From positions 36,708 to 100,707 of the forward strand of contig JACQDL010000001.1 of NCBI GenBank assembly GCA_016201065.1: a stretch of DNA of 64,000 bases, in the 5' to 3' direction. The translations under genes were made by a program, and so were the position numbers. How positions within the stretch are numbered: position 1 is the stretch's first letter; each line of letters begins with the position of its first letter. Below, piece after piece: positions 23,936-38,172 of this stretch. Origin of the DNA: Actinomycetota bacterium (lineage in GTDB: Bacteria; Actinomycetota; Actinomycetes; Mycobacteriales; JACQDL01). Under the pieces are notes generated by a model that saw nothing but the letters and a program-made list of their open reading frames with translations, ran no database searches and was not told where the DNA came from.

Positions 23936-24652
23936 TCATGCGGCACCTCGGCGGGTTCCTGCTTCGCGGGCAACCGCCGGGACGGGTCCCGGTCTCACGT
24001 CGCCTCCGCAGGCGTTGCTGTCCGCCAGCCCGGCGGCCAGTCTGCGACCCTCGACCAGGATGTTCCTGGCCGCGTTCACGTCGCGGTCGTGCTCGGTGCC
24101 GCACACGCGACAGGTCCACGCCCTGACGTCGAGGGGTTTCGGCCCGTCCCGGCGCCCGCATGCCGAGCACTGTCGGCGACGACGGGAACCAGCGGCCGAC
24201 CTTGGCGCGGTTCGCCGGGCCTCTCTCCTTGCGTGCCAGCTGGCGTTGGAGCCGGGCGAGCTTGCGGGACTTGCGGCGCAGGTGGCTCGGGTTCGCCACG
24301 ATCTCCCCGCCGGAGGTGGAAACCAACCGGTCCAGACCGAGGTCGATCCCAACGTCGTTCAGGCTGGCAGGTAGTGGTCGGTCAGCGACCTCAACAACGA
24401 ACGAGGGCGAGCCAGTTCCGGTAGGCGCGTCGGGCGTCCTGGCATGCCTGCACCAGCGCGACCGAGGCGACCTCGCCCAGCCACACCCGTTCTCCGGTGA
24501 GCTTGGCGAGGGTCACGACGCGGCGTTGCACCTGCGTGTCGGAGATCTTCCCCCCCGGCCGCGTGGGCGTCCTGGCGGGTACGGAGCGCGTCGTTGAACA
24601 CCACTCGAGCACACCCGAACGTGCGGGCCAGCATCTCCCGCTGGTCGGGTAC
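23936..24652 (-). pseudogene. tnpB: TnpB (IS200/IS605 RNA-guided nuclease) remnant with internal deletions and frameshifts
   Basis: Fragments QREMLARTFGCARVVFND; KISDTQVQRRVVTLAK...ALVQACQDARRAYRNW; SFVVEV...VGIDLGL (RuvC-I); NRAKV|GRWFPSS; CSACG...WTCRVCGTEHDRDVNAARNI (Zn ribbon, RuvC-III). RuvC-II region is missing. Confidence 0.92.
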
Positions 24653-24830
24653 CCGCCGACCGTGCGCCTCTCCCGGCTGGTGAACTCCCCCAACGGCGTC
24701 TCCGCCAGCAGTTCCGGTTGCGCACCCACCGCGAGCACCTATGGTTGCCGTCGTACTTCGCTGTGTCTTGCGGCGGCACCCCCTGTCGATCATCGGGGAG
24801 AACGTGGAGCAGCAGCGACGGCCCGCCTGA
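24650..24830 (+). pseudogene. tnpA: C-terminal fragment of TnpA (Y1 HUH transposase)
   Basis: YPPTVRLSRLVNSPNGVS, then frameshift to HLWLPSYFAVSCGGTPLSIIGENVEQQRRPA*. The usual catalytic Tyr position reads AAC (Asn) at 24801-24803; the HUH half is deleted. Confidence 0.85.
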
Positions 24831-24840
24831 ACAGCACCGG

Positions 24841-24853
24841 CTACCCCGGCCCT
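24841..24853 (-). mobile_element. Inner half of the IS605 left-end hairpin (...CCCCGGCCCT)
   Basis: Completes the hairpin CCCGGCC-CTGAAC-GGCCGGG when joined to 36503+ through the shared CCCT. Confidence 0.75.
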
Positions 24854-24901
24854 AAACCGCAGCGTCCCTGGTCACCCACGCTGTTGTGGCGCTCGTTTCG
24901 C

Positions 24902-24948
24902 CCCGTAGCGGTGGGCGTGGACGGTCCCGCCACGCCCACCGCTACGGG
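24902..24948. terminator. 19-bp perfect inverted repeat, probable terminator downstream of the small HTH gene
   Basis: CCCGTAGCGGTGGGCGTGG (24902-24920), 9-nt loop, CCACGCCCACCGCTACGGG (24930-24948). Confidence 0.7.
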
Positions 24949-25022
24949 TTCACCCGCGACCCGAAGCCCTGCGGCGTCCGGGGCCCGGGGAGCCGCCGCC
25001 CACCCGGTGGGCTGGTCGGTCA

Positions 25023-25436
25023 CTACCGGTCCTGACCGGCGTCGCGACCAAGGCCAGGCCACGCCGCGACGTAGCTCGCATCCATCCCGGCCGGTGCCGA
25101 CCGAGATGGCTCACCGTCCGATGCGTCGCAGTGGGGGTGGGTGCACCACGCCACCCCCAGCAGTCCCGGTGGTATGCCCAACCCGTTGGCGATTCGTGCC
25201 AACACCGCCCGTGAGATCACCCGGCGACCGTTGACGATCGCGGACACCTCCGGTTGTTCGTGTCCGGTCAGCTCACCGATCGCACGCTGGCTGTATCCGT
25301 ACGCACCGAGCAGCCGATACACCGCCCCGACGTCCTGGGCGGTCAACGCCGACCGCATTACCGGCTCGCACCACACCCCGGGTGGTGGCTGGCCCGACGG
25401 CGCGAGTCGACGGGGTGCTCTGCCGGCGGGTGACAT
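25023..25436 (-). CDS. Stand-alone XRE-type HTH protein, paralogous to the N-terminus of the divergent regulator
   Basis: VWCEPVMRSALTAQDVGAVYRLL...SQRAIGELTG.EQPEVS.IVNGRRV...VLARIANGLGIP aligns by eye with residues ~14-90 of 25957-27321. Confidence 0.8.
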   Translation of the reverse strand: MSPAGRAPRRLAPSGQPPPGVWCEPVMRSALTAQDVGAVYRLLGAYGYSQRAIGELTGHEQPEVSAIVNGRRVISRAVLARIANGLGIPPGLLGVAWCTHPHCDASDGEPSRSAPAGMDASYVAAWPGLGRDAGQDR

Positions 25437-25444
25437 CCCTCGGA

Positions 25445-25672
25445 TCACGACACCACGCGCCCCTGGCCGTGCCCCGAGGCGGTGCGCAGCACCAACCGAA
25501 CTTCCCGCTGGGTCATCCGCAATCCACGGGCGATCCGCTCCGCTGGGCAGCCCTCCGCAGCCAGCCATGTGATCTGAGCGACGGCCTCCGGCGCGACGAC
25601 GATATTAGGAGATGTTCGAGATTTGGCCTGGCAGGGGTCGTGGGCCTGGGAACTTGCTGAACCGTGACGCAT
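25445..25672 (-). CDS. Small hypothetical protein (75 aa), possible HTH
   Basis: GGAGG SD before ATG 25672; AEGCPAERIARGLRMTQREVRLVL resembles a helix-turn-helix. Confidence 0.5.
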   Translation of the reverse strand: MRHGSASSQAHDPCQAKSRTSPNIVVAPEAVAQITWLAAEGCPAERIARGLRMTQREVRLVLRTASGHGQGRVVS

Positions 25673-25956
25673 ACCGTTTCCTCCCTGTGATCCGGTGGTC
25701 GGCGGCATCGCGGCGGACAGGGCGATACCCGAGGACCCGGCTCCGCCGCTCGGATCACCCGGTGGCGGGTGGAACTCCGGTGATCAGATTTCGCTGACAC
25801 ACCGCAGTGGGTAAGCCTCACTGCTAGTGCGCTTGAACGGTTGGTCGCGACGCCTAGTCGCGCTAGTCGCCTTGGCCTGTCGGGGATTCCGGACATGAGG
25901 GTGCGGCAGCTAGCCTGCTGGGACAGAATCGACCACCGGACGGCAGGCGGGATCAG

Positions 25957-27321
25957 ATGAACGTTGATCAGCACTCGACCGGCCAGGTCGCGCCGACGGT
26001 CTGGGAGCACCGTGAGATGCGGATGGCGTTGGCGTTCCGCGACCTGAAGGCCGTCTACGAACGCCTCCAGCGGGTGGGGGTGTCCCAGCGCCACATCGCT
26101 CGCCTGACCGGCCAGAGCCCGTCCGAGGTCTATGAGATCCTCAAGGGCCGCCGCGTCATGGCCCACGACGTGTTGGTGCGGGTCGCCGACGGATTGGGCA
26201 TCCCGCGCGGATACATGGGCCTCGCCTACGACGAATCAACGGAAATAGCCCTCGACCTGGCGACGGCGACGTGCTCTGGGAACGCCGACGAGCGGGACGA
26301 AGTCAGGCGGCTCCTCCGGCATGCCGCGAACGTCGCGATGGGTACTTCCGTTGAGGACGTCGCCCACTGGTGGCAACCCATCGACCGGCAGGTCGCGCCC
26401 GCGCCCACCGGCATCGGAATGCGCGACGTGGAGCACGTCGAGACGCTCACCGCCGCGATGCGTGCCCTGGACTACCGGTACGGCGGAGGAGCCTGCCGTG
26501 ACGCGGTAGCCGCCCACGTGCGGTGGACACAGCAACTCCTCACCGCATCCTGCGCCGACCGGACCCGTACCCGCCTGCATCGAGCGTTGGCAGACCTGCA
26601 CAATCTCGCGGGCTGGACCTCATTCGATGTCGGCATGTACTCCATTGCGCGAAAACATTTCGCACGCGCCCTCGAACAGGCCAAACACGCCGGAGATCTG
26701 TCGCTGGCCGCGAACGTGCTGTACCGCACGGGACGGCTCCACCTCCACCGTGGCATGCCCCGTGAGGCGCTGCGCTTCTTCCAGCTGGGGCAGATCACCG
26801 TCCAGGACAGTGGTTGCGGGCTGACGGTGGCGATGCTGTGCGCCAACGAAGGATGGGCCTACGCGTTGCTCGGCGACCGACCGCAGGTCCGGCGCTCGCT
26901 CGGGCGCGCCCGGGACGAGTTCACCCGCGCCGACCGCACCTCAGCTCCGGCCTGGGTGCGTTTCTTCGGCGATGCGGACCTGCACGCCTCCATTGGAGTG
27001 ACCTACTCCTCACAAACCAACGCGACCGCCAGTGAACTGACGCAGGCGATCGACCACATCAATCAGGCCATTGGGCTGCGGGGACCGGACATGACGCGCA
27101 GCCTGGTTTTCGAGCGGACCGCCCTCGCGGTGGCGCACCTGCGGGCCGGAAACCGGGACGTGGGGCTGGCGGTGGGACGCGAGGCGACCGCCTCCGGTGT
27201 TCGTTCGCTGCGCACCCTGGATCGGCTCGAACCGTTGCAGAGCATCGCCGCCACGCGCCACGGCGATACCGCCCTCGAGGATCTGGGGCACCAGATCGCG
27301 AGCTTGCGAGCGGCGTCGTGA
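25957..27321 (+). CDS. XRE-family transcriptional regulator with C-terminal TPR-like domain
   Basis: N-terminal HTH (VSQRHIARLTGQSPSEV), D..YGGG, LADLHNLAGW..FDVG, AWVRFF..ADL. Confidence 0.88.
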   Translation: MNVDQHSTGQVAPTVWEHREMRMALAFRDLKAVYERLQRVGVSQRHIARLTGQSPSEVYEILKGRRVMAHDVLVRVADGLGIPRGYMGLAYDESTEIALDLATATCSGNADERDEVRRLLRHAANVAMGTSVEDVAHWWQPIDRQVAPAPTGIGMRDVEHVETLTAAMRALDYRYGGGACRDAVAAHVRWTQQLLTASCADRTRTRLHRALADLHNLAGWTSFDVGMYSIARKHFARALEQAKHAGDLSLAANVLYRTGRLHLHRGMPREALRFFQLGQITVQDSGCGLTVAMLCANEGWAYALLGDRPQVRRSLGRARDEFTRADRTSAPAWVRFFGDADLHASIGVTYSSQTNATASELTQAIDHINQAIGLRGPDMTRSLVFERTALAVAHLRAGNRDVGLAVGREATASGVRSLRTLDRLEPLQSIAATRHGDTALEDLGHQIASLRAAS

Positions 27322-28238
27322 CCGGCGGCGCAGGCACCGCCGGTCACGCGACTTCCACCACGGTCCCCGACACGCTTCGGATCGCGCTCCACGACGTCTG
27401 CGCAACAGCGGGTCTCGACCCGACCGGAGCACAGTTGATCAAGTTCACCAACAACGCCGTGTTCGAACTGGCTGGAGCACCAGTGGTGATCCGTATCGCC
27501 GGGTCGCAGACGGCGCGCGACCGGGTCCCCACAGTGATCACAGTGGCACGCTGGCTCGCCGCGCACGACATGCCCAGCGTGCGGCTCGACCCTCGCGTGG
27601 ACCAACCGGTCCGGTCCGGAGGCCACCTGGCAACCCTGTGGCGACAGGTACCGAACATCGGCCCCGCCCCCACCGGCACCGACCTTGGGCGGATCCTTCG
27701 CCGCTACCACGCGCTGCCCCCGCCCGAGCAGCCGCTGCCCACCTGGCGTCCACTGCGGCCAATACGGCAGCGTCTCACCGAAACCGACATGCTCAGCGAC
27801 AGCGACCGCGAGTTCCTGGACGCGACGTGCGACGAGCTTGAAGACGCACTGAGCCGTCTGGATTGCCAACTCCCACCCGGACCGATCCACGGCGACCCTT
27901 TCCTCGGCAACCTGATACCCGGACCCGGCGGGCCGGTGATCTGCGATTTCGATTCTGCGGCCAACGGCCCACGGGAGTGGGATCTCACTCCCGTGGCCGT
28001 TGGTGGACTTCGGTTCCGCTACGTGGGCGAGGCGCCCACCCAACTCGCCCACGCCTACGGAACGGACCTGACCAGGTGGCCCGGCTTCACGGTGTTGCGA
28101 AAGCTTCGTGAATTGCAGCTCGTCACCAGTGTCGTGCCGGTCCTGCGACGCAACCCGGCGCTTACCGAACAGTGGCGCCATCGATTTACGACATTCCGCG
28201 ACCAGGATCACGCCGCGGTCTGGACCCCCTACCGGTAG
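27318..28238 (+). CDS. Aminoglycoside-phosphotransferase-like (APH/choline kinase fold) protein
   Basis: GTGA overlap; TNNAVF.L, IHGDPFLGN (Brenner motif), CDFD...GPREWDL. Confidence 0.88.
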   Translation: MTGGAGTAGHATSTTVPDTLRIALHDVCATAGLDPTGAQLIKFTNNAVFELAGAPVVIRIAGSQTARDRVPTVITVARWLAAHDMPSVRLDPRVDQPVRSGGHLATLWRQVPNIGPAPTGTDLGRILRRYHALPPPEQPLPTWRPLRPIRQRLTETDMLSDSDREFLDATCDELEDALSRLDCQLPPGPIHGDPFLGNLIPGPGGPVICDFDSAANGPREWDLTPVAVGGLRFRYVGEAPTQLAHAYGTDLTRWPGFTVLRKLRELQLVTSVVPVLRRNPALTEQWRHRFTTFRDQDHAAVWTPYR

Positions 28239-28320
28239 CCGGCGCTGACCCGCTGATCCAGACCATCGGCACCAACCCTCGGGCCGGCGCGGTCCGGGAA
28301 CCTCGAGATGGAGGACACCC

Positions 28321-28479
28321 ATGTCCAGCAGCACATTGCCGCAGCACCCGACCGTATGCACGGACGGGTTCGACCTGGACGTCACCGTGTTGGAGGTGGC
28401 TGATCCGGCCGGCCTGGTCAATGTGACCGACGACGGTTGCACCAGTACATGCGGAGCCTGTGTCACCAACATGGCCTGA
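28321..28479 (+). CDS. lanA: FxLD-family class I lanthipeptide precursor, 52 aa (not in the ORF track)
   Basis: GGAGG at 28310-28314; MSSSTLPQHPTVCTDGFDLDVTVLEVADPAGLVNVTDDGCTSTCGACVTNMA*; FDLD leader motif, Thr/Ser/Cys-rich core, directly upstream of lanB. Confidence 0.93.
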   Translation: MSSSTLPQHPTVCTDGFDLDVTVLEVADPAGLVNVTDDGCTSTCGACVTNMA

Positions 28480-28509
28480 TCGATCACCCGCCCACCGGTC
28501 GACGCGGTC

Positions 28510-31500
28510 GTGTCCGGTCTCCATCCGATACGTCTACCGGGCGTGAACCGGTCTGACCCGCCACGGGAGGTCGTCTTGCCGCCGTACGCTCGTCAGCCCG
28601 GGTACCGGGTCGCTGGTGCGGCACTCCTCCGCGCCACCGCCCACCCGATGCCGGAGGTCCCGCCGTGGCCGGACCTGGCCGACTCGACACCCGGGGCAGC
28701 CGCAGCCGGCGTGACCTGGCTTCGACAGGTCTGGGCGATCGACCACCTCGCCGACGCGATCGAGCACGCCAGCCCGGCGCTGGACCGGCAGGTACGGGCG
28801 CTGTGCGCCGCCGAGGTTCCCCCGGCTCGAAAGACCCGGCGTGCGGTGCTGTCGGTGGTGCGGTACCTGCACCGCATGACGGGGCGAGCCACGCCGTTCG
28901 GTTTGCTGGCGGGTGTCGCGTCGGCGAGTTTCGCGTCGCCCGCTCAGGTGCGGTGGGGTACCGACCACCGGCCTGTAGCCCGGGCCGCGGCGGAGTGGCT
29001 TGCCGGTGTGCTGGCGCGGTTGGAGGACTGCCCCGAACTTCTCGCCCGGCTGCCGGTGGTCGCCAACACCACACTGATGGTGCGTGGGGACCGGCTGGTC
29101 GTGCCGTATCAGCCGCAGGCCCGCGCCCGGGGGATCGGCGCGGTGGAGGTCTCGCTGCGGTACACCGCCGTCGTGCACGCCGTCATCGAAGCAGCCAGCA
29201 CACCGATCCAGATGGAGGATCTGGCCGCGACAATCCAGGCCGACCATCCGACGGCGCCCGGGGCGAAGATCACCGCGATGCTCACCGAACTGGTCCAGCG
29301 TGGTGCGCTGCTCACCAGCGTTCGCGCACCCAGCACCGAGCCGGACGCCTTGGGGCATCTTGTGGACCAGTTGGACGCGGTCGGCGCCCCCACCCTTGGC
29401 GCGGTCGGTGGGCTGGCCACGGCGGTGCGGGAGGTCCACTCAATGCTTGAGCGGCACAACCAGACGCCCGCCGCTGAGGGACGCCAGATCCGGGTAGCAG
29501 CCTCCACCCGGATGCGTGAGCTGGCGCCCACCACACGGCACCCCTTGGCGTTGGACCTTCGGCTCGACGGGACCTTCGTTCTTCCCGAGCAGGTCGCGCG
29601 GGAGGTCGAACACGCCGCGTGGGTGCTGACCCGGTTGAGCGCCTATCCGGTGGGGACGCCGACGTGGCGCGGCTACCACCAGCGGTTCTACGAACGGTTC
29701 GGTATCGGTTCGCTGGTTCCGCTGCGTGAGGTGATCGGCGACAGCGGCATCGGCTGGCCTGACGGCTACCCGGGTACGGTCGTACCAGAGCCCCGTTCGC
29801 CGATGTCGAGCCGGGACGAGACCCTGCTGGGGTTGGCCCAACGCGCCGCCCTCGACGGCCTCGACGAGGTTGTCGTGGATGAGCACCTGATCTCGGCGCT
29901 GCGGCTGGGGCCGACGCAGCACCGCCCACCGGCGCATCTGGAGATCGGTGTCCGGATACGTGCCACAAGCCACGCGGCCATGGCGTGCGGTGACTTCCTG
30001 ATCGAGGTGCTCAACGTCTCGCGTGCGGCTGGCGTGCTGACCGGACGGTTCCTCAGCGTCCTGGACCCCGAGGGCCGGACCGGCCTGGCGCGTACCCTCA
30101 CGGATCTGCCCGGTACCGACGGTGACACGGTGGCGGCACAGCTGTCGTTCCCGCCACTGGACCCCGCGACCGCGCACGTCACGCGGGCGATGCCGATCCT
30201 GCCCACCGTGGTCAGTCTTGCCGAGTACCGCACCGCTGACGAGCGGGTCTTGACCATCGACGATCTCGCGGTGGGCTGCGACGGCCACCGGATGTACCTG
30301 GCGGCGCCGGCCCGTGGACTGCGGGTGGAGGCCGCGGGTGCGCATGCGCTGAACCTCAAGACCCACACCCCGCCCCTCGCCCGGTTCCTGATCGAACTCA
30401 GCCGGGCGCAGTGCGCGCAGGTCACAGTGTTCTCCTGGGGCGCTGCCGGGTGCCTGCCGTTCCTGCCACGGTTGCGCTACGGCCGTACCGTCCTGTCCCC
30501 GGCGCGGTGGCGGCTGGAGGCATCCGACCTCCCGGCCCGCGGGGCGCCGTTGGTCGCCTGGGAGCGTGCCCTGACCGTGTGGCGGGCGCAGCGGCGGGTA
30601 CCGGGCCTGGTGTATCTGGCCGAAGGGGACCGGCTGCTGCCACTGGACCTGGACCGCTGCGGGCACCGTGTCCTGTTGCGCACCCACCTCGCCTCGACGC
30701 CGCACGCGGTGCTGATCGAAGCCCCCGGCGTTCACGACACCAACGACTGGTGCGGCGGGCGCGCCCACGAACTCATCGTTCCGGTCGTCGCCACCGAACC
30801 GGCATCGTGGCCGCCGCTGCCGACACCGACCGGCGCACGCGTCGTCGGCCGCGAGCACACCCACACGCCTGCCGTCTGCGGGGTCATGCTGGCCAGCCTG
30901 TACGGGGATGTCCACCGCCAGGACACCATCTTGTCCGGATACCTTCCCGCGCTGCTGGCCGAGTTCGACGAACCCGCCTGGTGGTACATCCGCTACCGCG
31001 ATCCCGACCACCACCTGCGGCTACGGTTCGCGTTGACCGACCCGGCGAGGTTCGGTGAGATGGCCCGCGCGGTCAGCACCTGGGCGGAGGAACTCAACCG
31101 GATCGGATTGGTGCGCGACCTGCGGTACCCGACATCCCATCCGGAGATCGGGCGCTGGGGATCGGGCCCGGCCTGGGCTGCCGCGGAGGAGGTGTTTCGC
31201 GCCGACTCCCGGGCCCTGCTGGTTCAGCTGGGCCAACTGTGCCACCCACACCGGCTGGCACTCACGGCCGCCCACACAGTCGCCATCACGATCGCGTTCA
31301 CCGGCAGCGCGACCGCCGGCATGCGGTGGCTGTTGGACCATGTGCCGGCCACCGCCCCGACGCCGGTGCCGCGGCCGGTCTTCGCCGAGGCTGTTCGCCT
31401 GGCTGATCCCCGCGGCGGTTGGGCGTGTCTGCGCGCCGCACCTGGTGGGGCGGCGATCCACGACGTGTGGCCGCCGCGCGAGACGGCTCTGGCCGCCTAC

Positions 31501-31683
31501 CGCCGCCACCTCGACGGCCCACACACCCAGGGCATCGCCGTCGATGACGTTCTCCGGTCCCTCCTGCACGCCAACTTCGTGCGCGCCAGCGGCATCGACT
31601 TCGACGGCGAAGCCACCGGGTTGTACCTGGCCCGTGCCGCGGCCCTCGCCTGGACGGCCCGCACGACAGGCCGTCAGCCATGA
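28510..31683 (+). CDS. lanB: Lanthipeptide dehydratase (glutamylation and elimination domains), 1057 aa
   Basis: YLHRMTGRATPFGLLAG, LPFLPRLRYG..VL.PARW, C-terminal WWYIRYRDPDHHLRLRF, YP...E..RWG. Confidence 0.94.
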   Translation: MSGLHPIRLPGVNRSDPPREVVLPPYARQPGYRVAGAALLRATAHPMPEVPPWPDLADSTPGAAAAGVTWLRQVWAIDHLADAIEHASPALDRQVRALCAAEVPPARKTRRAVLSVVRYLHRMTGRATPFGLLAGVASASFASPAQVRWGTDHRPVARAAAEWLAGVLARLEDCPELLARLPVVANTTLMVRGDRLVVPYQPQARARGIGAVEVSLRYTAVVHAVIEAASTPIQMEDLAATIQADHPTAPGAKITAMLTELVQRGALLTSVRAPSTEPDALGHLVDQLDAVGAPTLGAVGGLATAVREVHSMLERHNQTPAAEGRQIRVAASTRMRELAPTTRHPLALDLRLDGTFVLPEQVAREVEHAAWVLTRLSAYPVGTPTWRGYHQRFYERFGIGSLVPLREVIGDSGIGWPDGYPGTVVPEPRSPMSSRDETLLGLAQRAALDGLDEVVVDEHLISALRLGPTQHRPPAHLEIGVRIRATSHAAMACGDFLIEVLNVSRAAGVLTGRFLSVLDPEGRTGLARTLTDLPGTDGDTVAAQLSFPPLDPATAHVTRAMPILPTVVSLAEYRTADERVLTIDDLAVGCDGHRMYLAAPARGLRVEAAGAHALNLKTHTPPLARFLIELSRAQCAQVTVFSWGAAGCLPFLPRLRYGRTVLSPARWRLEASDLPARGAPLVAWERALTVWRAQRRVPGLVYLAEGDRLLPLDLDRCGHRVLLRTHLASTPHAVLIEAPGVHDTNDWCGGRAHELIVPVVATEPASWPPLPTPTGARVVGREHTHTPAVCGVMLASLYGDVHRQDTILSGYLPALLAEFDEPAWWYIRYRDPDHHLRLRFALTDPARFGEMARAVSTWAEELNRIGLVRDLRYPTSHPEIGRWGSGPAWAAAEEVFRADSRALLVQLGQLCHPHRLALTAAHTVAITIAFTGSATAGMRWLLDHVPATAPTPVPRPVFAEAVRLADPRGGWACLRAAPGGAAIHDVWPPRETALAAYRRHLDGPHTQGIAVDDVLRSLLHANFVRASGIDFDGEATGLYLARAAALAWTARTTGRQP

Positions 31684-32954
31684 CCAGCGAACACCTCGCC
31701 AGCGCCATGGCCGGCGCCGTCGCCGATCGACTGGCGCGCCCCGATACCGTGCCCACGCACCTGACCGAGGCGATCTGGTGGCGGCAATCCCTGGCGCATG
31801 GCGCGCCCGGAATCGCGCTGCTACACGTCGAGCGCGCCGCCGCCGGACTCGGACCATGGGAGCGGGCACACGACTGGCTCGCCTACACGGCGCGCGCCGC
31901 GCTCACCACCGGACCCGACAGTCACCTGTTCTACGGCGCCCCAGCCCTCGCCCACGTCCTCGCCTGCGCCGCCGCGCACCGGCCCGGCGCCTACACCCGG
32001 GCGCTGGCCCGCCTTGACCACGCCATTGCCGTCGACACCCACAACCGAGTCGGTGACGCCCACGCCCGCATGGACCGGGGCGAGCTGCCCGCCCTCGCCG
32101 ACTTCGACGTGATTCGAGGTCTCAGCGGTGTCGGCTCCCTGCTGCTGCGCCGCGACCCCCACGGCCTGGCGCTGCACGCCGTCCTCGACTACCTCGTCCG
32201 GCTCACCGAGCCCGTGAGGGGCGACGGGCAGGCCCTGCCCGGCTGGTGGACCACGTCGAGTCCCTCCGGGCGCGACAGCGGCCAGTTCCCCGGAGGCCAC
32301 GGCAACACTGGTGTGGCACACGGCATCGGTGGTGTGCTCGCCCTGCAGGCGCTCGCAACTCGACACGGCATCACCGTGGACGGCCAGCGGGAGGCCATGG
32401 GACGGATCTGCGCCTGGCTGGACCGGTGGCGCACCGACACCGGCGCGGGCCCAGTCTGGCCGTACTGGGTCAACCTCGCTCACCTGCGCGCCGGACACCA
32501 CGACACCACCGACCGGCAGCCACCGAGCTGGTGCTACGGCACCGCCGGCCTGGCCCGGGCCCAACAACTGGCCGCCATGGCCACCGGTGACACCCACCGC
32601 CAAGACTTCGCCGAACGCGCACTGGTCCAGGCCCTATCGGGTGTCGTTCAACGCTCCACCACGACGAATGCCTCCCTATGTCATGGCTACGCCGGGTTCG
32701 CCCACATCGCCAGTATCGTGGCGGCCGACGCCAGCACCGATGCCGCTGCGGCACTGCGGGCACTGACCCAAGACCTGCTGAACGCGCTCCAACCCGCCGA
32801 CGTCGATCCCGCCGAGACCGCCGCCCGCCTCGTTCGCGGCGACGACGGACCGGGATTCCTGGAAGGCGCCGCCGGGATCGCGCTGGCGGTCCTGGCTCCC
32901 AGCGCCGCGACCCGGCCCCAAACCGGCTGGGACACCTGCCTGCTCATCACCTGA
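31680..32954 (+). CDS. lanC: Lanthionine synthetase C (cyclase)
   Basis: FDVIRGLSG, GVAHGIGG, SWCYGTAG and LCHGYAG (Zn ligands Cys/Cys/His intact), FLEGAAG. Confidence 0.94.
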   Translation: MTSEHLASAMAGAVADRLARPDTVPTHLTEAIWWRQSLAHGAPGIALLHVERAAAGLGPWERAHDWLAYTARAALTTGPDSHLFYGAPALAHVLACAAAHRPGAYTRALARLDHAIAVDTHNRVGDAHARMDRGELPALADFDVIRGLSGVGSLLLRRDPHGLALHAVLDYLVRLTEPVRGDGQALPGWWTTSSPSGRDSGQFPGGHGNTGVAHGIGGVLALQALATRHGITVDGQREAMGRICAWLDRWRTDTGAGPVWPYWVNLAHLRAGHHDTTDRQPPSWCYGTAGLARAQQLAAMATGDTHRQDFAERALVQALSGVVQRSTTTNASLCHGYAGFAHIASIVAADASTDAAAALRALTQDLLNALQPADVDPAETAARLVRGDDGPGFLEGAAGIALAVLAPSAATRPQTGWDTCLLIT

Positions 32955-32985
32955 GCAACACCCCACCCCACCGTCTGCGAAGGAG

Positions 32986-35088
32986 ATGCCGCACCCGATG
33001 CCACCGACCCCCTGGCGCCAGTACAACGTCGAGTTTCCCGATCGGGCGACCGCGGCGTGGACCGCCGCGCACGACCTCCACCCGGCGTTGACCGCGGCAC
33101 AGGAGACCGGTGCGCTTCACGGGTGGTGGTTCGTGCGTAAACAACCCTGGAAGCTCCGATACCTACCCGACGACCCCGACTCCCGTGTGATCACCGAACT
33201 GTTGGACACGCTCACCACGCAGGGCCGGGTCGCCGGGTGGGCGGTGGGGACCTACGAACCCGAAACGCGGGCCTTCGGCGGTGACGCCGCGATGGACGTC
33301 GCCCACGCGCTGTTCCACCGCGACAGCCACCACATCCTGGCCCGCGCCGCGCAGGCCAACGGCGCGCTCCCGTGGCGGCGGGAGACCACGGTCCTGTTGT
33401 GCAGTGCCATGCTGCGCGCCGCGGGGTTGGACTGGTACGAGCAGGGCGACGTCTGGTCGAAAGTCGCCGCGTTGCGCCCCGACACACCCACGACCACCAC
33501 CACCGGACGAGCCACGGCACTGGTGGGGTCCATGCGGCAGCTCATGGCCACCGACACCCGCACCTTGTGCGCACCCGGTCGTGGTCCCCTCGCCGGCTGC
33601 GGCAGCTGGCTGGACGCCTTCGAGAGCACCGGGTACCAGCTGGCGGAGCTGGCACGGCACGGCGAGCTGACCCGGGGACTACGCGCCGTCCTCGCCCACC
33701 ACGTCATCTTCCACGCCAACCGCGCCGCGCTACCCGCAGCTGACCAGGCCACCCTGGCCGGGTTGGCGGTCGACGCCGTCTTCACCTCCACCGACGACCC
33801 CGTGTCGCCACTCACCGCGACACCACCACCCACTAAGGTGCCCGAAATGACCACTGTCCGTGACGACATCCCCGCCGCGTCCGCCGACCAACTGCGCCAC
33901 GATCTCACCACCCGGCTACATGGAATGAACGCCATTCGGACCCCCGCCATCGAAGCGGCCTTCCGGCGGACACCGCGACACCTGTTCCTTCCGGGTCTAC
34001 CGGTGGAGCAGGCATACGCCGACACCCCCATCTACACCAAGCAGGATGCCTGTGGCGCGTCGATCAGCGCGGCCTCCCAACCATGGATGGTCGCGGGCAT
34101 GCTCGAACAGCTCGACGCCCAACCCGGCGAGCGGATCATGGAAGTCGGTGCGGGCACGGGATACAACGCGGCGCTGCTCGCCGCGGTCGTCGGCGCGCCC
34201 GGTCACGTCACCACGATCGACGTCGACGACGACCTCGTCACCGCTGCCCGACAGCACTTGAGCGCCGCCGGCGTCGGCAACGTCGACGTCGTCCTCGGCG
34301 ATGGCGCGCTGGGGCATCCCGAAGGCGCCCCCTATGACCGGATCATCGCCACGGTGGGCGCCTACGAGACACCCACCGCGTGGCTGGAGCAGCTCGCACC
34401 CGGCGGGCGTCTGGTCGTTCCGGTCCGGCTGCGCGGCACCACCTCCCGCTCCATCGCCTTCGAGCGCGACACCCACGCCTGGGTCAGCCGGGGCTCCAAG
34501 CTGGCGGTCTTCATGCCGCTGCGCGGGATCGCCGACGACGCCCGGCGGATCGTCGCGCTCACCCCCGAGCAGGATGTGACACTGCAGGTCAACAAGGACC
34601 ATCTGGTTGACGACCCGGCCCTGGTGGGAGTGTTGGACACCACCCGGCATGAGGAATGGTCCGGTGTGCACCATCCACCCAACGTTCCGTTCGAGTGGAT
34701 GGAACTGTGGTTGTGCCTGCGCCTGGACAATCCCCTCATGCGCATGAACACCCAACCCTCGGCGGCCGACCGTGGCCAGGTCACCCCCATGTTCCCGTGG
34801 GGTTCCATGGCCACCACCCGAGACCATGACCTTGCCTACCTCACCATCCGACCAGCACCACCGGCCAGTGACGGCGGGAAGCTGTACGAGGTCGGCGTCA
34901 TCGGCCACGGACCCGACGGCAGCAGCCTCGCGCAGCGCGTCGCCGAGGAGATCCGGACCTGGGACGGCCAATTCCGTGGCCGTGGCGCCCGATTCGAAAT
35001 CCCCGACACGCCCACCACCAACGACCCGGCAGCCGGTCGATTCGTCCTGGACCGACCCCACCACCCCATCACCGTCATCTGGGAATGA
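32986..35088 (+). CDS. Fusion of a Lant_dehydr_C-like glutamyl-lyase domain and a PIMT-like O-methyltransferase (FxLD system)
   Basis: N-terminal WWFVRKQPWKLRY, YEPE...FGG..AMDVAHALFH.DS, HHVIFHANR. C-terminal AFRRTPRHLFLP, SAASQP, MEVGAGTGYNAA (SAM), YDRIIATVG, PGGRLVVP. Confidence 0.92.
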   Translation: MPHPMPPTPWRQYNVEFPDRATAAWTAAHDLHPALTAAQETGALHGWWFVRKQPWKLRYLPDDPDSRVITELLDTLTTQGRVAGWAVGTYEPETRAFGGDAAMDVAHALFHRDSHHILARAAQANGALPWRRETTVLLCSAMLRAAGLDWYEQGDVWSKVAALRPDTPTTTTTGRATALVGSMRQLMATDTRTLCAPGRGPLAGCGSWLDAFESTGYQLAELARHGELTRGLRAVLAHHVIFHANRAALPAADQATLAGLAVDAVFTSTDDPVSPLTATPPPTKVPEMTTVRDDIPAASADQLRHDLTTRLHGMNAIRTPAIEAAFRRTPRHLFLPGLPVEQAYADTPIYTKQDACGASISAASQPWMVAGMLEQLDAQPGERIMEVGAGTGYNAALLAAVVGAPGHVTTIDVDDDLVTAARQHLSAAGVGNVDVVLGDGALGHPEGAPYDRIIATVGAYETPTAWLEQLAPGGRLVVPVRLRGTTSRSIAFERDTHAWVSRGSKLAVFMPLRGIADDARRIVALTPEQDVTLQVNKDHLVDDPALVGVLDTTRHEEWSGVHHPPNVPFEWMELWLCLRLDNPLMRMNTQPSAADRGQVTPMFPWGSMATTRDHDLAYLTIRPAPPASDGGKLYEVGVIGHGPDGSSLAQRVAEEIRTWDGQFRGRGARFEIPDTPTTNDPAAGRFVLDRPHHPITVIWE

Positions 35089-35089
35089 C

Positions 35090-36217
35090 ATGCACCGCAC
35101 CGGGCCGATCGCCCGCCGCTTCCCCCTCGTGGCCCGCGCCCGCCCACCGTGCCCGCCGCTGGCAGACCGGGTCGACCGACTGCGCGCACTCGCCGACACA
35201 GCCGACCAGAACGACGACCTCGCCACCGCCTCCGCCGTCTTCAACCAGGCGGCGCTGCTCGCCTCGGACTGCGGTCTACCCGACCTGGCCAGGCAGTGGT
35301 GCCACCGGCACACCGGTGTCCACCTGCGGGCGCTGCCTGTGGACGCGCGGGCGGCCCGCCACGCCCTGGAACCCATCGTCAACCTCGCCCGCCTGCACAT
35401 CCGGGCAGGCCACGGCGACACCGCATTCCACCTCTTGGACTCCCTCTTCGAGGCGGTCGATGCCCGCACTGATGTCGTCATCGACGGTGTGTCGCTGCCC
35501 ATCACCCAGCTGACCCGGACAGCCACCGACCACCGAGAACTCCGCCAGTGGCTGTGGACCGTTCACCTCGCCGACGGCAGCCGCGCCCTCACCAGCATCG
35601 GCCGCTGGCAGGACGCCCACGAGCACCTGCACCGCCGACACGGCATCGGCACACGGATGCTCGACGGCCGCCAGGTTGCGGTCATCACCCACCTCACCGC
35701 GGACAACCACGCGCACGCCAAAGCACTGATCGACGGCACCGCAGCCGGCGAGCCCTGGGAGTCCGCCGTGACCAGATGCCTGGCCGCACTGTGCCACGCA
35801 GACGGTGACCACGCGACCCTCAACGACATCACCGCCATGCTGGAGGGCTACCGACCACTCCCCCCCACCCCCAGCCTGGCCGTGTTCCACGGCCGGTTGT
35901 GCCTGTCCGTCATCGACGCGGCCGGTGGCATCAGGCATCCCGGTGCACGCGACCTCGCCAACACGCTGATCCAGCAGACGCGGGCCTCCCGCGACGGGTA
36001 CCTCACACGCGACGTACTCGCCCACGACGGCTGCGTCACAATGCTCACCAACGACCAACGGCGCGACCTCGGTGAGATGCTCAAGGCCACCGCGCTGGGA
36101 CTCCGGGACATCCCCACGCAGCTGTACGCACGCCTCACGGCGGCATTGGACACCAGCGAAGCCGTGCTGGCGCGCACGTTGGCCGCGCGACCGCAGCGCA
36201 CCCGGTCTGTCAGGTAG
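35090..36217 (+). CDS. Conserved hypothetical protein coupled to the FxLD cluster (helical/TPR-like)
   Basis: ATG 1 nt after the methyltransferase stop; RFPLVARARPPC.PL..RV, AVFNQAALLASDCG.PDLA, LEP.VNLARL; 375 aa intact. Confidence 0.75.
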   Translation: MHRTGPIARRFPLVARARPPCPPLADRVDRLRALADTADQNDDLATASAVFNQAALLASDCGLPDLARQWCHRHTGVHLRALPVDARAARHALEPIVNLARLHIRAGHGDTAFHLLDSLFEAVDARTDVVIDGVSLPITQLTRTATDHRELRQWLWTVHLADGSRALTSIGRWQDAHEHLHRRHGIGTRMLDGRQVAVITHLTADNHAHAKALIDGTAAGEPWESAVTRCLAALCHADGDHATLNDITAMLEGYRPLPPTPSLAVFHGRLCLSVIDAAGGIRHPGARDLANTLIQQTRASRDGYLTRDVLAHDGCVTMLTNDQRRDLGEMLKATALGLRDIPTQLYARLTAALDTSEAVLARTLAARPQRTRSVR

Positions 36218-36273
36218 CGGCCGGCTGACGGTGGAGGGTCGTTCGCGTAGGTGGGCTCGGCCGCTGGGCTCAG

Positions 36274-36502
36274 CGGCAGCTGCCAGCGACCAGGAGCGGC
36301 CGTTGACGACGACATCCGCCCCACCAGCAGACCATCATCATCCGTCGGTTGCACGACGGCGACGAACAGGGACGGCAGCGCCGTGGCCTCCGGAACCCAC
36401 CGCAGGGCGAAGTGCCGGTAGGTCACCCGTGCCCAGGACAGGACCATGCTGTGGGGTCCCTCCCACTCCAGCCCCGCGCACGCCACCACGGGCCCGTCGA
36501 AA
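36274..36502 (-). pseudogene. NUDIX-type hydrolase internal fragment, cut at the cargo boundary
   Basis: FDGPVVACAGLEW...TYRHFALR...LLVGRMSSSTAAPGRWQLP stops just before where the Nudix box (GG..E) would be expected; no start. Confidence 0.65.
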
Positions 36503-36541
36503 CCCTGAACGGCCGGGCTTGCGCCAGCAAAGAAGGGGTCA
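36503..36541 (-). mobile_element. IS605 left end, outer half, plus target tetramer TGAC (36541-36538)
   Basis: Minus strand TGAC|CCCTTCTTTGCTGGCG-CAAG-CCCGGCCGTTCAGGG. CAAG predicts TGAC under the IS608 guide/target pairing rule. Confidence 0.85.
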
Positions 36542-36842
36542 CCGACGAGTCGTCTACGCCATCGAGGCCCTCGCCGAAGCAGGGCCCAACCTGGGCCGGC
36601 CGCTCGTAGACCGGGTCAAGGGCTCCACAGTGCACAGCTTCAAGGAACATCGACCTGGCTCGGCAGGCACCAGCGAGATCAGGGCCCTGTTCGTGTTCGA
36701 CCCCTGGCGTTCGGCGATCGTGCTGGTCGCCGGAGACAAGGCCGGCAACTGGAACGGCTGGTACCGCCAAGCCATCCCGCGCGCCGAGGAGCTGTAGGCG
36801 ATCTACCTGGAGGAACGAGCCCACGAGGAGAGTGCACCGTAG
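36538..36842 (+). pseudogene. 3' part of RelE/ParE-superfamily (HigB/Gp49-like) toxin, with a premature TAG at 36795
   Basis: HRRVVYAIEALAEAGPNLGRPLVDRVKGS...E.RPGSAGTSEIRALFVFDPWRSAIVLVAGDKAGNWNGWYRQAIPRAEEL*AIYLEERAHEESAP*. Confidence 0.88.
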
Positions 36843-37113
36843 GCGACACCCGCTGGTCGCAGATCCGCAACAAGCACATCGCCGCGGCCTGACTCAACGC
36901 GACATCGCGGCCGTCATGGGCGTCACCGTCGGCCGGGTCTCCCAGATCGAATCGGGCGACGTCTCCGGCATTGACGTCCTCGACCGCTACGTCACCGCCA
37001 TCGGCGGCCTGCTGGAGATCGTCGCCAACTTTGGCGACGAACAATTCAAGGGAGGACGTCGAGGGTGTCCAGGCCCCGTTGGGTGGCGGATCTGGTTCCT
37101 CACTGTGGGTTGA
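36839..37113 (+). pseudogene. HigA-like HTH antitoxin remnant (internal deletion, no clear start)
   Basis: DTRWSQIRNKHIAAA, then a frame change to RGLTQRDIAAVMGVTVGRVSQIESG...LDRYVTAIGGLLEIVANFGDE. Confidence 0.8.
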
Positions 37114-37119
37114 CCGACG
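37105..37119 (+). repeat. 15-bp direct repeat, right copy (GTGGGTTGACCGACG)
   Basis: Identical to 23830-23844. Confidence 0.85.
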
Positions 37120-37135
37120 GACGCGCACCCTCTAC

Positions 37136-37161
37136 CTTTGTTGAACGTTCGCTAAACAAAG
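37136..37161. promoter_or_regulatory. Imperfect palindrome, probable TetR autoregulatory operator
   Basis: CTTTGTT-GAACGTTCGCTA-AACAAAG, AT-rich, ends 7 bp before the TetR start. Confidence 0.6.
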
Positions 37162-37168
37162 GGGTACC

Positions 37169-37798
37169 GTGGGGCGCCGACCGACCTGGACCGAACCGGA
37201 TCTGCTCCGAGCGGTGATGGCGGTGTTTCGCCGCAGGGGCTTCGCCCGGACATCCATCCGCGACCTGGCGGAGGCGACGGGCCTGCATCCGGGCAGCCTG
37301 TACCAGGCGTACGGCAGCAAGGAAGGCTTGTTCGCGGCGGCGGTCACCACCTACAACGAGCTGGTGGTCGAGCACCGGGTGCGCACCCATCTCGACGAGG
37401 CCGAGCCGCCGCTGCGCGGAATCGACACGTTCTTCGCCTCGACCTTCGACGACGACGGCGACGACGACTCCGCTGCCGACGGACCCAACCCGGGGTGCCT
37501 GCTGACGAACACCGCTGTCGAGGCGCACCTGCTACCCGGCACCAGTCGCGACGGGGTCGCCGCGGGCCTGAACCTGATCGAGCAAGGGTTCCAGCGAGTG
37601 CTGGAGCGCGCCCGCCAGGCCGGGCAGATCAACCCCACCGCCGCGACCGACCAACTCGCCGCCCAGCTGCTTGCCCTCTACCAGGGCGTGCTGGTGTTGG
37701 TGCGGTTCGGCGCGCCCACGACGAAGCTCGCCGCCATCGTCGCCCACGCCGTTCCCGCGATCATCGCATCCGGCCACCACGCGGAAGGATCGACCTGA
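37169..37798 (+). CDS. TetR/AcrR-family regulator
   Basis: F.RRGFARTSIRDLAEATGLHPGSLYQAYGSKEGLF; GCLLTNTAVE. Confidence 0.92.
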   Translation: MGRRPTWTEPDLLRAVMAVFRRRGFARTSIRDLAEATGLHPGSLYQAYGSKEGLFAAAVTTYNELVVEHRVRTHLDEAEPPLRGIDTFFASTFDDDGDDDSAADGPNPGCLLTNTAVEAHLLPGTSRDGVAAGLNLIEQGFQRVLERARQAGQINPTAATDQLAAQLLALYQGVLVLVRFGAPTTKLAAIVAHAVPAIIASGHHAEGST

Positions 37799-37800
37799 CC

Positions 37801-38172
37801 ATGTACACCGAGATCTGGAGTGCCTACGCCAGCGCATGGTCGGCTCCCGAGCCACAGCGCCATGACCTGCTCGACCGGCACGTCTGCCCGGACGTCGCCT
37901 ACCGGGACCCGGCGACGGAGGTACGTGGCCGCGACGCGCTGTCGACCTACATGCACTCCTTCCAGCAGGGCTTTCCGGGGCACGAGTTCGCCATCGTGTC
38001 CGTCGAGTCCCACCACGGCCGGTCGCTGGCCCGCTGGGAGCTCCGGGACCACGCCGGTAGGCCGGTTCAGGCCGGCATCAGCCACGCCGTCCACGACGAG
38101 CAGCAGCGGCTCGCCGACGTCACCGGATTCTTCGCGGTCCCACCGCAGGCTGCCCCACCGGCGGACCGTTGA
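37801..38172 (+). CDS. SnoaL-like / NTF2 fold protein
   Basis: Y..AWS...[16 protein letters not shown]...FQQGFPG.EF; coupled to TetR. Confidence 0.8.

What the first reader, a model, noticed from the sequence alone, without database searches (positions are those of the whole stretch)
30979..33850. Two different glutamate-elimination domains in one cluster: possible mixed methyllanthionine stereochemistry
Seen: the LanB C-terminal domain has WWYIRYRDPDHHLRLRF, while the extra domain fused to the methyltransferase has WWFVRKQPWKLRY (Tyr replaced by Lys, His missing). Known (recalled): SptBb- and CoiSA-type lyases with such changes do syn-elimination to give E-Dhb and D-allo-L-methyllanthionine, whereas NisB-like domains do anti-elimination. 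Inference: different Thr residues are routed to different lyases, giving several ring diastereomers.
Basis: partly seen in the sequence, partly recalled or inferred. Interest (0 to 1): 0.65.

Follow-up and report, generated by a model that had tools for sequence, protein, structure and literature searches.

The report
Coi-type lanthipeptide cluster, two lyases

Summary
The LanB gene (28510-31683) ends in a canonical elimination domain. The next-but-one gene (32986-35088) fuses a second, divergent elimination domain to a protein-isoaspartate-type O-methyltransferase. The two domains share about 27% identity.

The fused domain carries the published marks of a syn-glutamyl lyase. It has Lys52 where LanB has Tyr829 (Lys in 74 of 74 orthologues) and Ala96 where LanB has the catalytic Arg882. 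It has Ile241 or His243, depending on the alignment, where LanB has the catalytic His1020.

The surrounding genes match the coi cluster of Streptomyces coelicolor gene for gene: FxLD precursor, LanB, LanC, lyase-methyltransferase fusion and a CoiH-like protein. Identity to a recovered coi orthologue is 45-52% for the enzymes.

For coi, Sarksian and van der Donk (2022) showed that CoiB and CoiSA act on different threonines and yield LL-, DL- and D-allo-L-methyllanthionine in one peptide.

The same layout occurs in at least 582 species-level genomes.

There are two small differences. The C-terminal ring motif is one residue shorter than in CoiA1 (CxxC instead of CxxxC), which is common in the family. 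The first carboxylate-binding Arg is Lys.

Stereochemistry in this organism is inferred, not shown. Interest is low.

The parts
28321..28479 (+). Precursor peptide (52 aa) with an FDLD leader motif. Core is ...LVNVT36DDGC40TST43C44GAC47VT49NMA.
   Evidence: ORF. NCBIfam TIGR04363 'FxLD family lanthipeptide' scores 40.2 bits against a cut-off of 30. Homologous precursors sit in the same position in the related loci.
28510..31683 (+). Full-length class I dehydratase LanB (1057 aa): N-terminal glutamylation domain plus C-terminal elimination domain.
   Evidence: Pfam Lant_dehydr_N E 4e-209 and Lant_dehydr_C E 6e-31. It is 48% identical to the CoiB orthologue in L087.
30895..31638 (+). Canonical (anti-type) glutamyl-lyase domain of LanB. 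It holds Tyr829, Arg837, Arg839, Glu879, Arg882 and His1020.
   Evidence: Aligned to NisB and 9g04. All five catalytic or binding residues are invariant in 70 partner LanBs. His1020 matches CoiB His994.
31680..32954 (+). LanC cyclase (424 aa). Its start overlaps the LanB stop (ATGA).
   Evidence: Pfam LANC_like E 1.5e-43. It is 52% identical to the CoiC orthologue. The overlap is seen.
32986..35088 (+). CoiSA-like fusion protein (700 aa). The true start may be Met5 at 32998, which sits better behind the GGAG and matches the CoiSA start.
   Evidence: 49% identity over the full length to the CoiSA orthologue. Pfam and NCBIfam hits. Upstream sequence.
33013..33768 (+). Divergent (syn-type) glutamyl-lyase domain. 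It holds Lys52, Lys56, Arg58, Glu93, Ala96, Ile241 and His243.
   Evidence: PF14028 E 8e-21. Residue conservation across 74 orthologues. Mapping to NisB and MibB, and to LanB.
33883..35082 (+). FxLD-system O-methyltransferase domain (PIMT type) with its C-terminal extension.
   Evidence: TIGR04364 scores 446 bits against a cut-off of 320 over residues 300-699. The SAM motif EVGAGTGY is present.
35090..36217 (+). CoiH/LphF-like protein (375 aa). It starts 1 nt after the fusion gene's stop.
   Evidence: No Pfam or NCBIfam hit. It is 45% identical to the CoiH orthologue. It is present directly downstream in 79 of the 80 related loci.
25957..28238 (+). Upstream NsdA-family HTH/TPR regulator (25957-27321) and APH-family kinase (27318-28238). 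They are co-directional with the cluster. Whether they belong to it is uncertain.
   Evidence: NF053720 scores 269 bits and Pfam APH E 1e-18. Homologues at 36-40% identity lie next to three Micromonospora loci but on the opposite strand.

Best explanation
The region is an intact class I lanthipeptide cluster of the coi / FxLD / 'lanthivirin' (lanthiphage) family.

Shown by sequence: LanB carries a complete NisB-type elimination domain (Arg-x-Arg, Glu, Arg, His). The gene after LanC fuses a second, distantly related elimination domain to a PIMT-type O-methyltransferase. That second domain has Lys in place of the Tyr and Ala in place of the catalytic Arg.

Inferred from the characterised coi system:
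- The LanB N-terminal domain glutamylates the core Thr residues.
- The LanB lyase removes glutamate by anti-elimination at Thr36 and Thr43, giving Z-Dhb.
- The fused lyase acts by syn-elimination at the C-terminal Thr49, giving E-Dhb.
- LanC then closes Thr36-Cys40, Thr43-Cys47 and Cys44-Thr49. This yields rings of different stereochemistry, including D-allo-L-MeLan at the last one.
- The methyltransferase domain modifies the second Asp (Asp38) of ring A towards aspartimide or isoAsp.
- The CoiH-like protein oxidises the ring A thioether to a sulfoxide.

The likely biological role, by family membership, is intracellular anti-phage defence.
For: - Domain calls: PF04738, PF14028, PF05147 and PF14028+PF01135. 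TIGR04363 and TIGR04364 score above their curated cut-offs.
- Gene order A-B-C-[GL::MT]-H is shared with essentially all of the 80 best loci out of 582 confirmed genomes.
- A coi orthologue was recovered through the published CoiA1 leader (97% identical). It reproduces the published residue numbers: CoiSA K46, R51, R53 and E89, and CoiB H994.
- The window proteins are 45-52% identical to that orthologue's enzymes.
- Lys52 is invariant in 74 of 74 orthologues. Position 96 is Ala, Thr or Val in 74 of 74 and never Arg.
- A profile alignment to NisB and MibB places Glu93 at NisB E823 and Ala96 at R826.
- Experimental basis in the homologue: CoiSA(ED) K46A accumulates glutamylated peptide. CoiB alone stalls at one dehydration. 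mCoiA1 carries LL-, DL- and D-allo-L-MeLan, assigned to Thr43, Thr50 and Thr57 (PMC9011353, PMC9486935).
- CoiH forms a sulfoxide (bioRxiv 10.64898/2026.08.26.747419).
- Anti-phage activity of the family is reported in bioRxiv 10.1101/2024.06.26.600839.
Against: - Nothing here was measured for this peptide. Identity to the characterised enzymes is only about 49%.
- The C-terminal motif is TCGACVT (CxxC), one residue shorter than CoiA1's CxxxC. Ring sizes differ, so regioselectivity and stereochemistry could differ.
- The first carboxylate-binding Arg is Lys56 here, seen in 3 of 74 orthologues.
- Whether the fused domain truly lacks a His at the catalytic column is alignment-dependent.
- SptBb itself could not be retrieved for direct alignment.
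- Expression in this organism is unknown.
Confidence: 0.8

Rival explanations
1. The fused PF14028 domain is catalytically dead. It serves only as a peptide-docking module that brings the methyltransferase to the (glutamylated or dehydrated) precursor. All eliminations are done by LanB, and only the usual Z-Dhb-derived stereoisomers form.
For: The domain lacks the canonical catalytic Arg (Ala96) and, in one alignment, the His (Ile241). Elimination-domain-like folds do serve as recognition modules in some RiPP systems (general knowledge).
Against: Lys52, Arg58, Glu93 and many other residues are invariant across 74 orthologues from many genera. In the homologue CoiSA, K46A causes glutamylated intermediates to accumulate, and the isolated domain eliminates at all three Thr (PMC9011353, PMC9486935).
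Confidence: 0.07
2. Both lyases are active but redundant, or the fused lyase does all eliminations in this CxxC-type peptide. The product would then have a uniform or differently distributed stereochemistry from mCoiA1.
For: CoiSA(ED) can eliminate at all three positions when the CoiB lyase is inactivated. The window core has a one-residue-shorter C-terminal ring system than CoiA1.
Against: In coi the all-E-Dhb peptide is not cyclised by CoiC. The LanB lyase residues are strictly conserved in 70 partner LanBs, which argues that both domains are under selection.
Confidence: 0.08
3. The cluster is a recently acquired, unexpressed passenger with no function in this host.
For: There is a G+C dip at about 24-38 kb, 0.68-0.73 against 0.74 in the flanks. 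None of 40 related genomes has the fusion gene. The nearest orthologues are in Streptosporangium at 69% identity.
Against: All five genes are intact, tightly spaced or overlapping. There are no internal stops.
Confidence: 0.05

Closest known systems
coi cluster of Streptomyces coelicolor A3(2) (CoiA1-3, CoiB, CoiC, CoiSA, CoiH), also called lanthiphage_Sco or lanthivirin
   Same: The gene order and domain architecture are the same. This includes the N-terminal syn-type lyase fused to the FxLD methyltransferase and the CoiH-like gene directly downstream. The FxLD leader and the T-D-D-G-C first ring are shared. The diagnostic Lys and the Arg-to-Ala change are shared. There is no protease or transporter gene in the cluster.
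   Different: The window has one precursor gene, not three. Enzyme identity is 45-52%. The C-terminal core motif is CxxC rather than CxxxC, so the two interlocked rings are each one residue smaller. Lys56 stands in place of CoiSA Arg51, with a one-residue shorter loop. The host has a small (3.65 Mb) non-Streptomyces genome. An NsdA-type regulator and an APH kinase lie upstream, not a conservon.
olv cluster of Streptomyces olivaceus (OlvA, OlvB, OlvC, OlvSA)
   Same: It has an FxLD-type precursor, a full-length LanB, LanC and a PIMT-type methyltransferase that converts the ring A Asp to isoAsp.
   Different: OlvSA has no fused lyase domain and the cluster has no CoiH. Its product has no D-allo-L-MeLan (PMC9486935). 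The window clearly belongs to the coi branch, not the olv branch.
SapT cluster split dehydratase SptBa/SptBb
   Same: By the literature, SptBb has the same kind of divergent lyase: a conserved Lys, no catalytic His or Arg, and syn-elimination to E-Dhb (PMC9011353, PMC9890492).
   Different: SptBb is a stand-alone protein and the only lyase in its pathway. It is not fused to a methyltransferase and is not paired with a full-length LanB. It was not aligned here because its sequence could not be retrieved.
NisB / MibB elimination domains (PDB 4WD9, 6M7Y, 5EHK)
   Same: The window's LanB C-terminal domain shares their Arg-x-Arg, Glu, Arg and His set.
   Different: The fused domain differs from them at the Tyr, at the Arg826 position and probably at the His961 position.

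Membership tests
coi / FxLD / lanthivirin class I lanthipeptide cluster | FxLD-leader precursor with a T-x-D-x-C first ring motif | tested here: met
   FDLD lies at residues 17-20 and T36-D-D-G-C40 follows. TIGR04363 scores 40.2 bits against a cut-off of 30.
coi / FxLD / lanthivirin class I lanthipeptide cluster | Full-length LanB and LanC | tested here: met
   PF04738 E 4e-209, PF14028 E 6e-31 and PF05147 E 1.5e-43.
coi / FxLD / lanthivirin class I lanthipeptide cluster | FxLD-system PIMT-type O-methyltransferase | tested here: met
   TIGR04364 (equivalog domain) scores 446 bits against a cut-off of 320.
coi / FxLD / lanthivirin class I lanthipeptide cluster | Second PF14028 domain fused N-terminally to the methyltransferase (CoiSA / LphDE architecture) | tested here: met
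   PF14028 covers residues 10-261 and PCMT covers 306-511 in one ORF. The protein is 49% identical end to end to the CoiSA orthologue.
coi / FxLD / lanthivirin class I lanthipeptide cluster | CoiH / LphF gene directly downstream | tested here: met
   The 375-aa ORF at 35090-36217 is 45% identical to the CoiH orthologue. A homologue follows the fusion gene in 79 of 80 loci.
coi / FxLD / lanthivirin class I lanthipeptide cluster | Confers anti-phage defence | not testable with these tools
   This is known only from experiments on other members (bioRxiv 10.1101/2024.06.26.600839).
syn-glutamyl lyase (CoiSA(ED) / SptBb type) | Conserved Lys at the column of the NisB/LanB Tyr (CoiSA K46) | tested here: met
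   Lys52 aligns with LanB Tyr829 and with the MibB Tyr. It is Lys in 74 of 74 orthologues. The CoiSA orthologue has K46 in the same column.
syn-glutamyl lyase (CoiSA(ED) / SptBb type) | Catalytic Arg (NisB R826) replaced by a non-basic residue | tested here: met
   Ala96 aligns with LanB Arg882 and with the NisB ERYGG Arg. The family has A in 66, T in 6 and V in 2.
syn-glutamyl lyase (CoiSA(ED) / SptBb type) | No His at the column of the catalytic base (NisB H961 / CoiB H994) | tested here: inconclusive
   A gapless L-INS-i alignment of 144 sequences puts Ile241 there. hhalign and a 4-sequence MAFFT alignment put His243 there using a 3-residue gap. The CoiSA orthologue has the same FH(F/A)NR motif, and the papers state that CoiSA lacks the His.
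syn-glutamyl lyase (CoiSA(ED) / SptBb type) | Retained gamma-carboxylate-binding basic pair (NisB R784/R786; CoiSA R51/R53) | tested here: met
   The window has Lys56 and Arg58. Arg58 is invariant. Position 56 is R in 50, P in 21 and K in 3. This variability fits the mild R51A phenotype reported for CoiSA.
syn-glutamyl lyase (CoiSA(ED) / SptBb type) | Produces E-Dhb and hence D-allo-L-MeLan | not testable with these tools
   This needs NMR or chiral GC-MS and Marfey analysis of the product.
canonical anti-glutamyl lyase (NisB type), for the LanB C-terminal domain | Arg-x-Arg, Glu, Arg and His catalytic set | tested here: met
   R837, R839, E879, R882 and H1020 are present. Each is invariant in 70 partner LanBs.

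The most novel reading that the evidence does not exclude
The CxxC-type core (TCGACVT) makes the two interlocked C-terminal rings one residue smaller than in CoiA1, the only stereochemically solved member of the family. This variant, which is common among the relatives seen here, might be cyclised with a different facial selectivity on the E-Dhb. That could give a ring stereochemistry pattern not yet seen, for example the still unobserved L-allo-L-MeLan, or a different division of labour between the two lyases.
Probability: 0.07. Interest if true: 0.5.

Novelty: new member of a known kind. Interest (0 to 1): 0.15.

Why it matters
It matters little beyond annotation. The family is large: more than 2000 clusters in the literature and at least 582 species-level genomes here.

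The value is a confident functional annotation of five genes, two of which have no informative Pfam name: the precursor and the CoiH-like protein. The cluster can also be flagged as a probable horizontally acquired anti-phage lanthipeptide system in a small-genome actinobacterium.

The CxxC core variant and the unresolved His question are modest leads for people who work on syn-lyases.

Tried and rejected
- A single-sequence search of the fused lyase domain against PDB sequences found nothing. Only a 32-sequence profile reached MibB, NisB and 9g04, and only over the N-terminal half. The His region could therefore not be mapped onto a solved structure.
- A search of the SapT paper's supplement for the SptBb and CoiSA sequences returned nothing. 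SptBb was never aligned directly.
- S. coelicolor's own record could not be named. I recovered an unnamed Streptomyces genome instead. Its CoiA1 leader is 97% identical to the published one, and its residue numbering reproduces the papers.
- I considered that the fused domain might be a recent duplicate of the LanB C-terminus. I rejected this because the two share only about 27% identity over 100 residues.
- I considered an olv-type assignment. I rejected it because OlvSA has no lyase domain and olv has no CoiH.
- I did not run structure prediction. The tools return no coordinates, so it could not settle the His alignment, and Pfam and NCBIfam already establish the fold.
- The host organism could not be named.
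Full report
**What is in the window**

On the + strand between 25.9 and 36.2 kb lies a compact operon-like set of genes:
- an NsdA-family HTH/TPR regulator (25957-27321);
- an APH-family kinase (27318-28238);
- a 52-aa ORF (28321-28479);
- a 1057-aa LanB (28510-31683);
- a 424-aa LanC (31680-32954, start overlapping the LanB stop);
- a 700-aa protein (32986-35088);
- a 375-aa protein that starts one base after the previous stop (35090-36217).

Pfam gives these hits:

| Protein | Pfam hit | E-value |
|---|---|---|
| LanB | Lant_dehydr_N | 4e-209 |
| LanB | Lant_dehydr_C | 6e-31 |
| LanC | LANC_like | 1.5e-43 |
| 700-aa protein, residues 10-261 | Lant_dehydr_C | 8e-21 |
| 700-aa protein, residues 306-511 | PCMT | 2e-43 |

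NCBIfam names the small ORF an 'FxLD family lanthipeptide' (TIGR04363, 40 bits, cut-off 30). It names the C-terminal 400 residues of the fusion 'methyltransferase, FxLD system' (TIGR04364, 446 bits, cut-off 320). These are the only two PF14028 domains in the assembly, which is 3.65 Mb and 97.8% complete.

**The observation**

LanB residues 824-840 are nt 30979-31029, and fusion residues 47-59 are nt 33124-33162. The two elimination domains are distant paralogues, about 27% identical over 100 residues. hhalign gives 96.5% probability for the profile match.

I built alignments of 74 fused-domain orthologues and 70 partner LanB C-terminal domains from related loci. I then aligned the two sets to each other and to NisB, MibB and 9g04. 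The residue map is:

| LanB residue | Fused-domain residue | Conservation in 74 fused orthologues |
|---|---|---|
| Tyr829 | Lys52 | K in 74 |
| Arg837 | Lys56 | R in 50, P in 21, K in 3 |
| Arg839 | Arg58 | R in 74 |
| Glu879 | Glu93 | E in 74 |
| Arg882 | Ala96 | A in 66, T in 6, V in 2 |
| His1020 | Ile241 or His243 | alignment-dependent, see below |

Ile241 comes from a gapless L-INS-i alignment anchored on the conserved VL...NR residues. His243 comes from hhalign and a four-sequence MAFFT alignment, both of which insert a 3-residue gap.

In the partner LanBs, R837, R839, E879, R882 and H1020 are invariant. So the LanB domain is a complete NisB-type lyase.

The 'His missing' refers to His835 inside the motif, which is not the catalytic base.

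**Comparison with the characterised system**

The literature search led to four papers:
- PMC9011353, on SapT, which first described SptBb and CoiSA(ED);
- PMC9486935, 'Divergent evolution of lanthipeptide stereochemistry';
- PMC9890492, on syn-elimination;
- a 2026 preprint on CoiH (10.64898/2026.08.26.747419).

They show the following for the coi cluster of S. coelicolor:
- CoiB is a canonical anti-lyase. CoiSA carries an N-terminal syn-lyase fused to the methyltransferase.
- CoiSA(ED) K46A accumulates glutamylated peptide.
- CoiB alone stalls at one dehydration.
- With the CoiB lyase inactivated (H994A), CoiSA(ED) dehydrates all three Thr, but CoiC cannot cyclise the product.
- The product carries LL-MeLan (Thr43), DL-MeLan (Thr50) and D-allo-L-MeLan (Thr57).
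- CoiH oxidises the ring A thioether to a sulfoxide.

The family of more than 2000 clusters protects Streptomyces against phages (10.1101/2024.06.26.600839).

To compare directly, I searched 400 Streptomyces genomes with the published CoiA1 leader. This recovered an orthologous locus at 97% identity, which I fetched as L087. Its genes reproduce the published numbering exactly: K46, R51, R53 and E89 in the fusion protein, and His994 in SLLHAHHIR of the LanB. It is a valid stand-in for coi.

The window proteins compare to it as follows:

| Window protein | Identity to L087 orthologue |
|---|---|
| LanB | 48% |
| LanC | 52% |
| Fusion, over all 700 residues | 49% |
| CoiH-like | 45% |
| Precursor | 45-59% |

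Window Lys52, Arg58, Glu93 and Ala96 fall in the columns of CoiSA K46, R53, E89 and A92. The CoiSA orthologue also has the FH(F)NR motif. The His243 ambiguity is therefore a property of the whole family, not of this window. The authors' statement that CoiSA lacks the His corresponds to the gapless alignment.

**How common it is**

The best are in Streptosporangium (69%), followed by Nonomuraea, Actinomadura, Micromonospora, Kitasatospora and Streptomyces.

In the 80 loci kept, the order precursor-LanB-LanC-fusion-CoiH-like is essentially universal wherever the contig allows it to be seen.

**The peptide**

The core is ...VT36DDGC40TST43C44GAC47VT49NMA. By position this matches CoiA1's Thr/Cys pattern, except that the last Cys-to-Cys spacing is CxxC rather than CxxxC (CoiA1 orthologue...LTDDGCKPSCQGSCATNVA). 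The CxxC form is the common one among the 80 nearest loci. The CxxxC form appears in Frankia and Actinomadura relatives and in coi.

By homology I predict these rings:
- Thr36-Cys40, containing the double Asp that the methyltransferase targets;
- Thr43-Cys47;
- Cys44-Thr49, with Thr49 as the substrate of the fused syn-lyase.

This assignment is inference.

**Verdict**

What is specific to this window:
- a single precursor gene;
- Lys at the first carboxylate-binding position;
- the CxxC core;
- a probable horizontal origin, indicated by a G+C dip at 24-38 kb, no fusion gene in 40 related genomes, and nearest orthologues in a different lineage.

None of this changes the mechanism. I rate it a new member of a known kind, of low interest.

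**Limits**
- No SptBb sequence was available.
- No solved syn-lyase structure turned up by sequence search of the PDB.
- The catalytic-His column is unresolved.
- All chemistry is inferred.

Noticed in passing
window 24000-38000: G+C is 0.68-0.73 across the cluster against about 0.74 in the flanks. None of 40 related genomes (same family or order) carries the lyase-methyltransferase fusion, and some have the two domains as separate genes. The nearest orthologues (69%) are in Streptosporangium. This suggests horizontal acquisition. Earlier first-reader notes propose an IS605-type mobile context, which I did not test.
   Followed up: partly
window 25957-28238; L009, L010, L016 upstream regions: An NsdA-family HTH/TPR regulator and an APH-family kinase sit directly upstream and co-directional with the precursor. 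Homologues at 40% and 36-37% identity lie next to three Micromonospora coi-type loci, but on the opposite strand. This may be a recurrent regulatory or kinase module attached to some family members.
   Followed up: partly
window 36072-37113: Just downstream of the cluster lies a Gp49/HigB-like toxin domain (PF05973, E 8e-14). It occupies only the last ~85 residues of a long ORF. A 93-aa HTH protein follows, giving a toxin-antitoxin-like pair. A TetR regulator is at 37169-37798.
   Followed up: no
window 25023-25568 (- strand): An HTH_31/HTH_3 protein of 181 aa is divergently oriented to the NsdA-like regulator.
   Followed up: no
window 32986-33000: The annotated ATG at 32986 directly abuts the GGAG. 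Met5 (ATG at 32998) has better spacing and corresponds to the CoiSA start. Residue numbers of the fusion protein may therefore be 4 too high.
   Followed up: partly
window 33697-33714; all 74 orthologues: The syn-lyase family has a conserved His cluster: H238 in 74/74, H239 in 65/74 and H243 in 69/74, in the motif AHHxIFHxNR. It sits on the segment that holds the catalytic His in canonical lyases. Its role has not been discussed in the papers I read.
   Followed up: partly
L001-L003 (2957-3508), L048 (1647-2225): Streptosporangium and Frankia loci carry two tandem precursor genes with different cores (for example ...STTDGGCGSTCGSSCVSST and ...MTDDGCTSTCGACVTNAP). The window has one.
   Followed up: no
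window 28357-28359: The leader peptide contains a Cys (Cys13, TVCTDGFDLD) just before the FDLD motif. This is not seen in the related leaders I listed.
   Followed up: no
70 partner LanB domains: In the LanBs that accompany fused syn-lyases, the 'Tyr' column opposite the diagnostic Lys is mostly Phe (49 F, 19 Y). Tyr itself is therefore not required in the anti-lyase partner.
   Followed up: no
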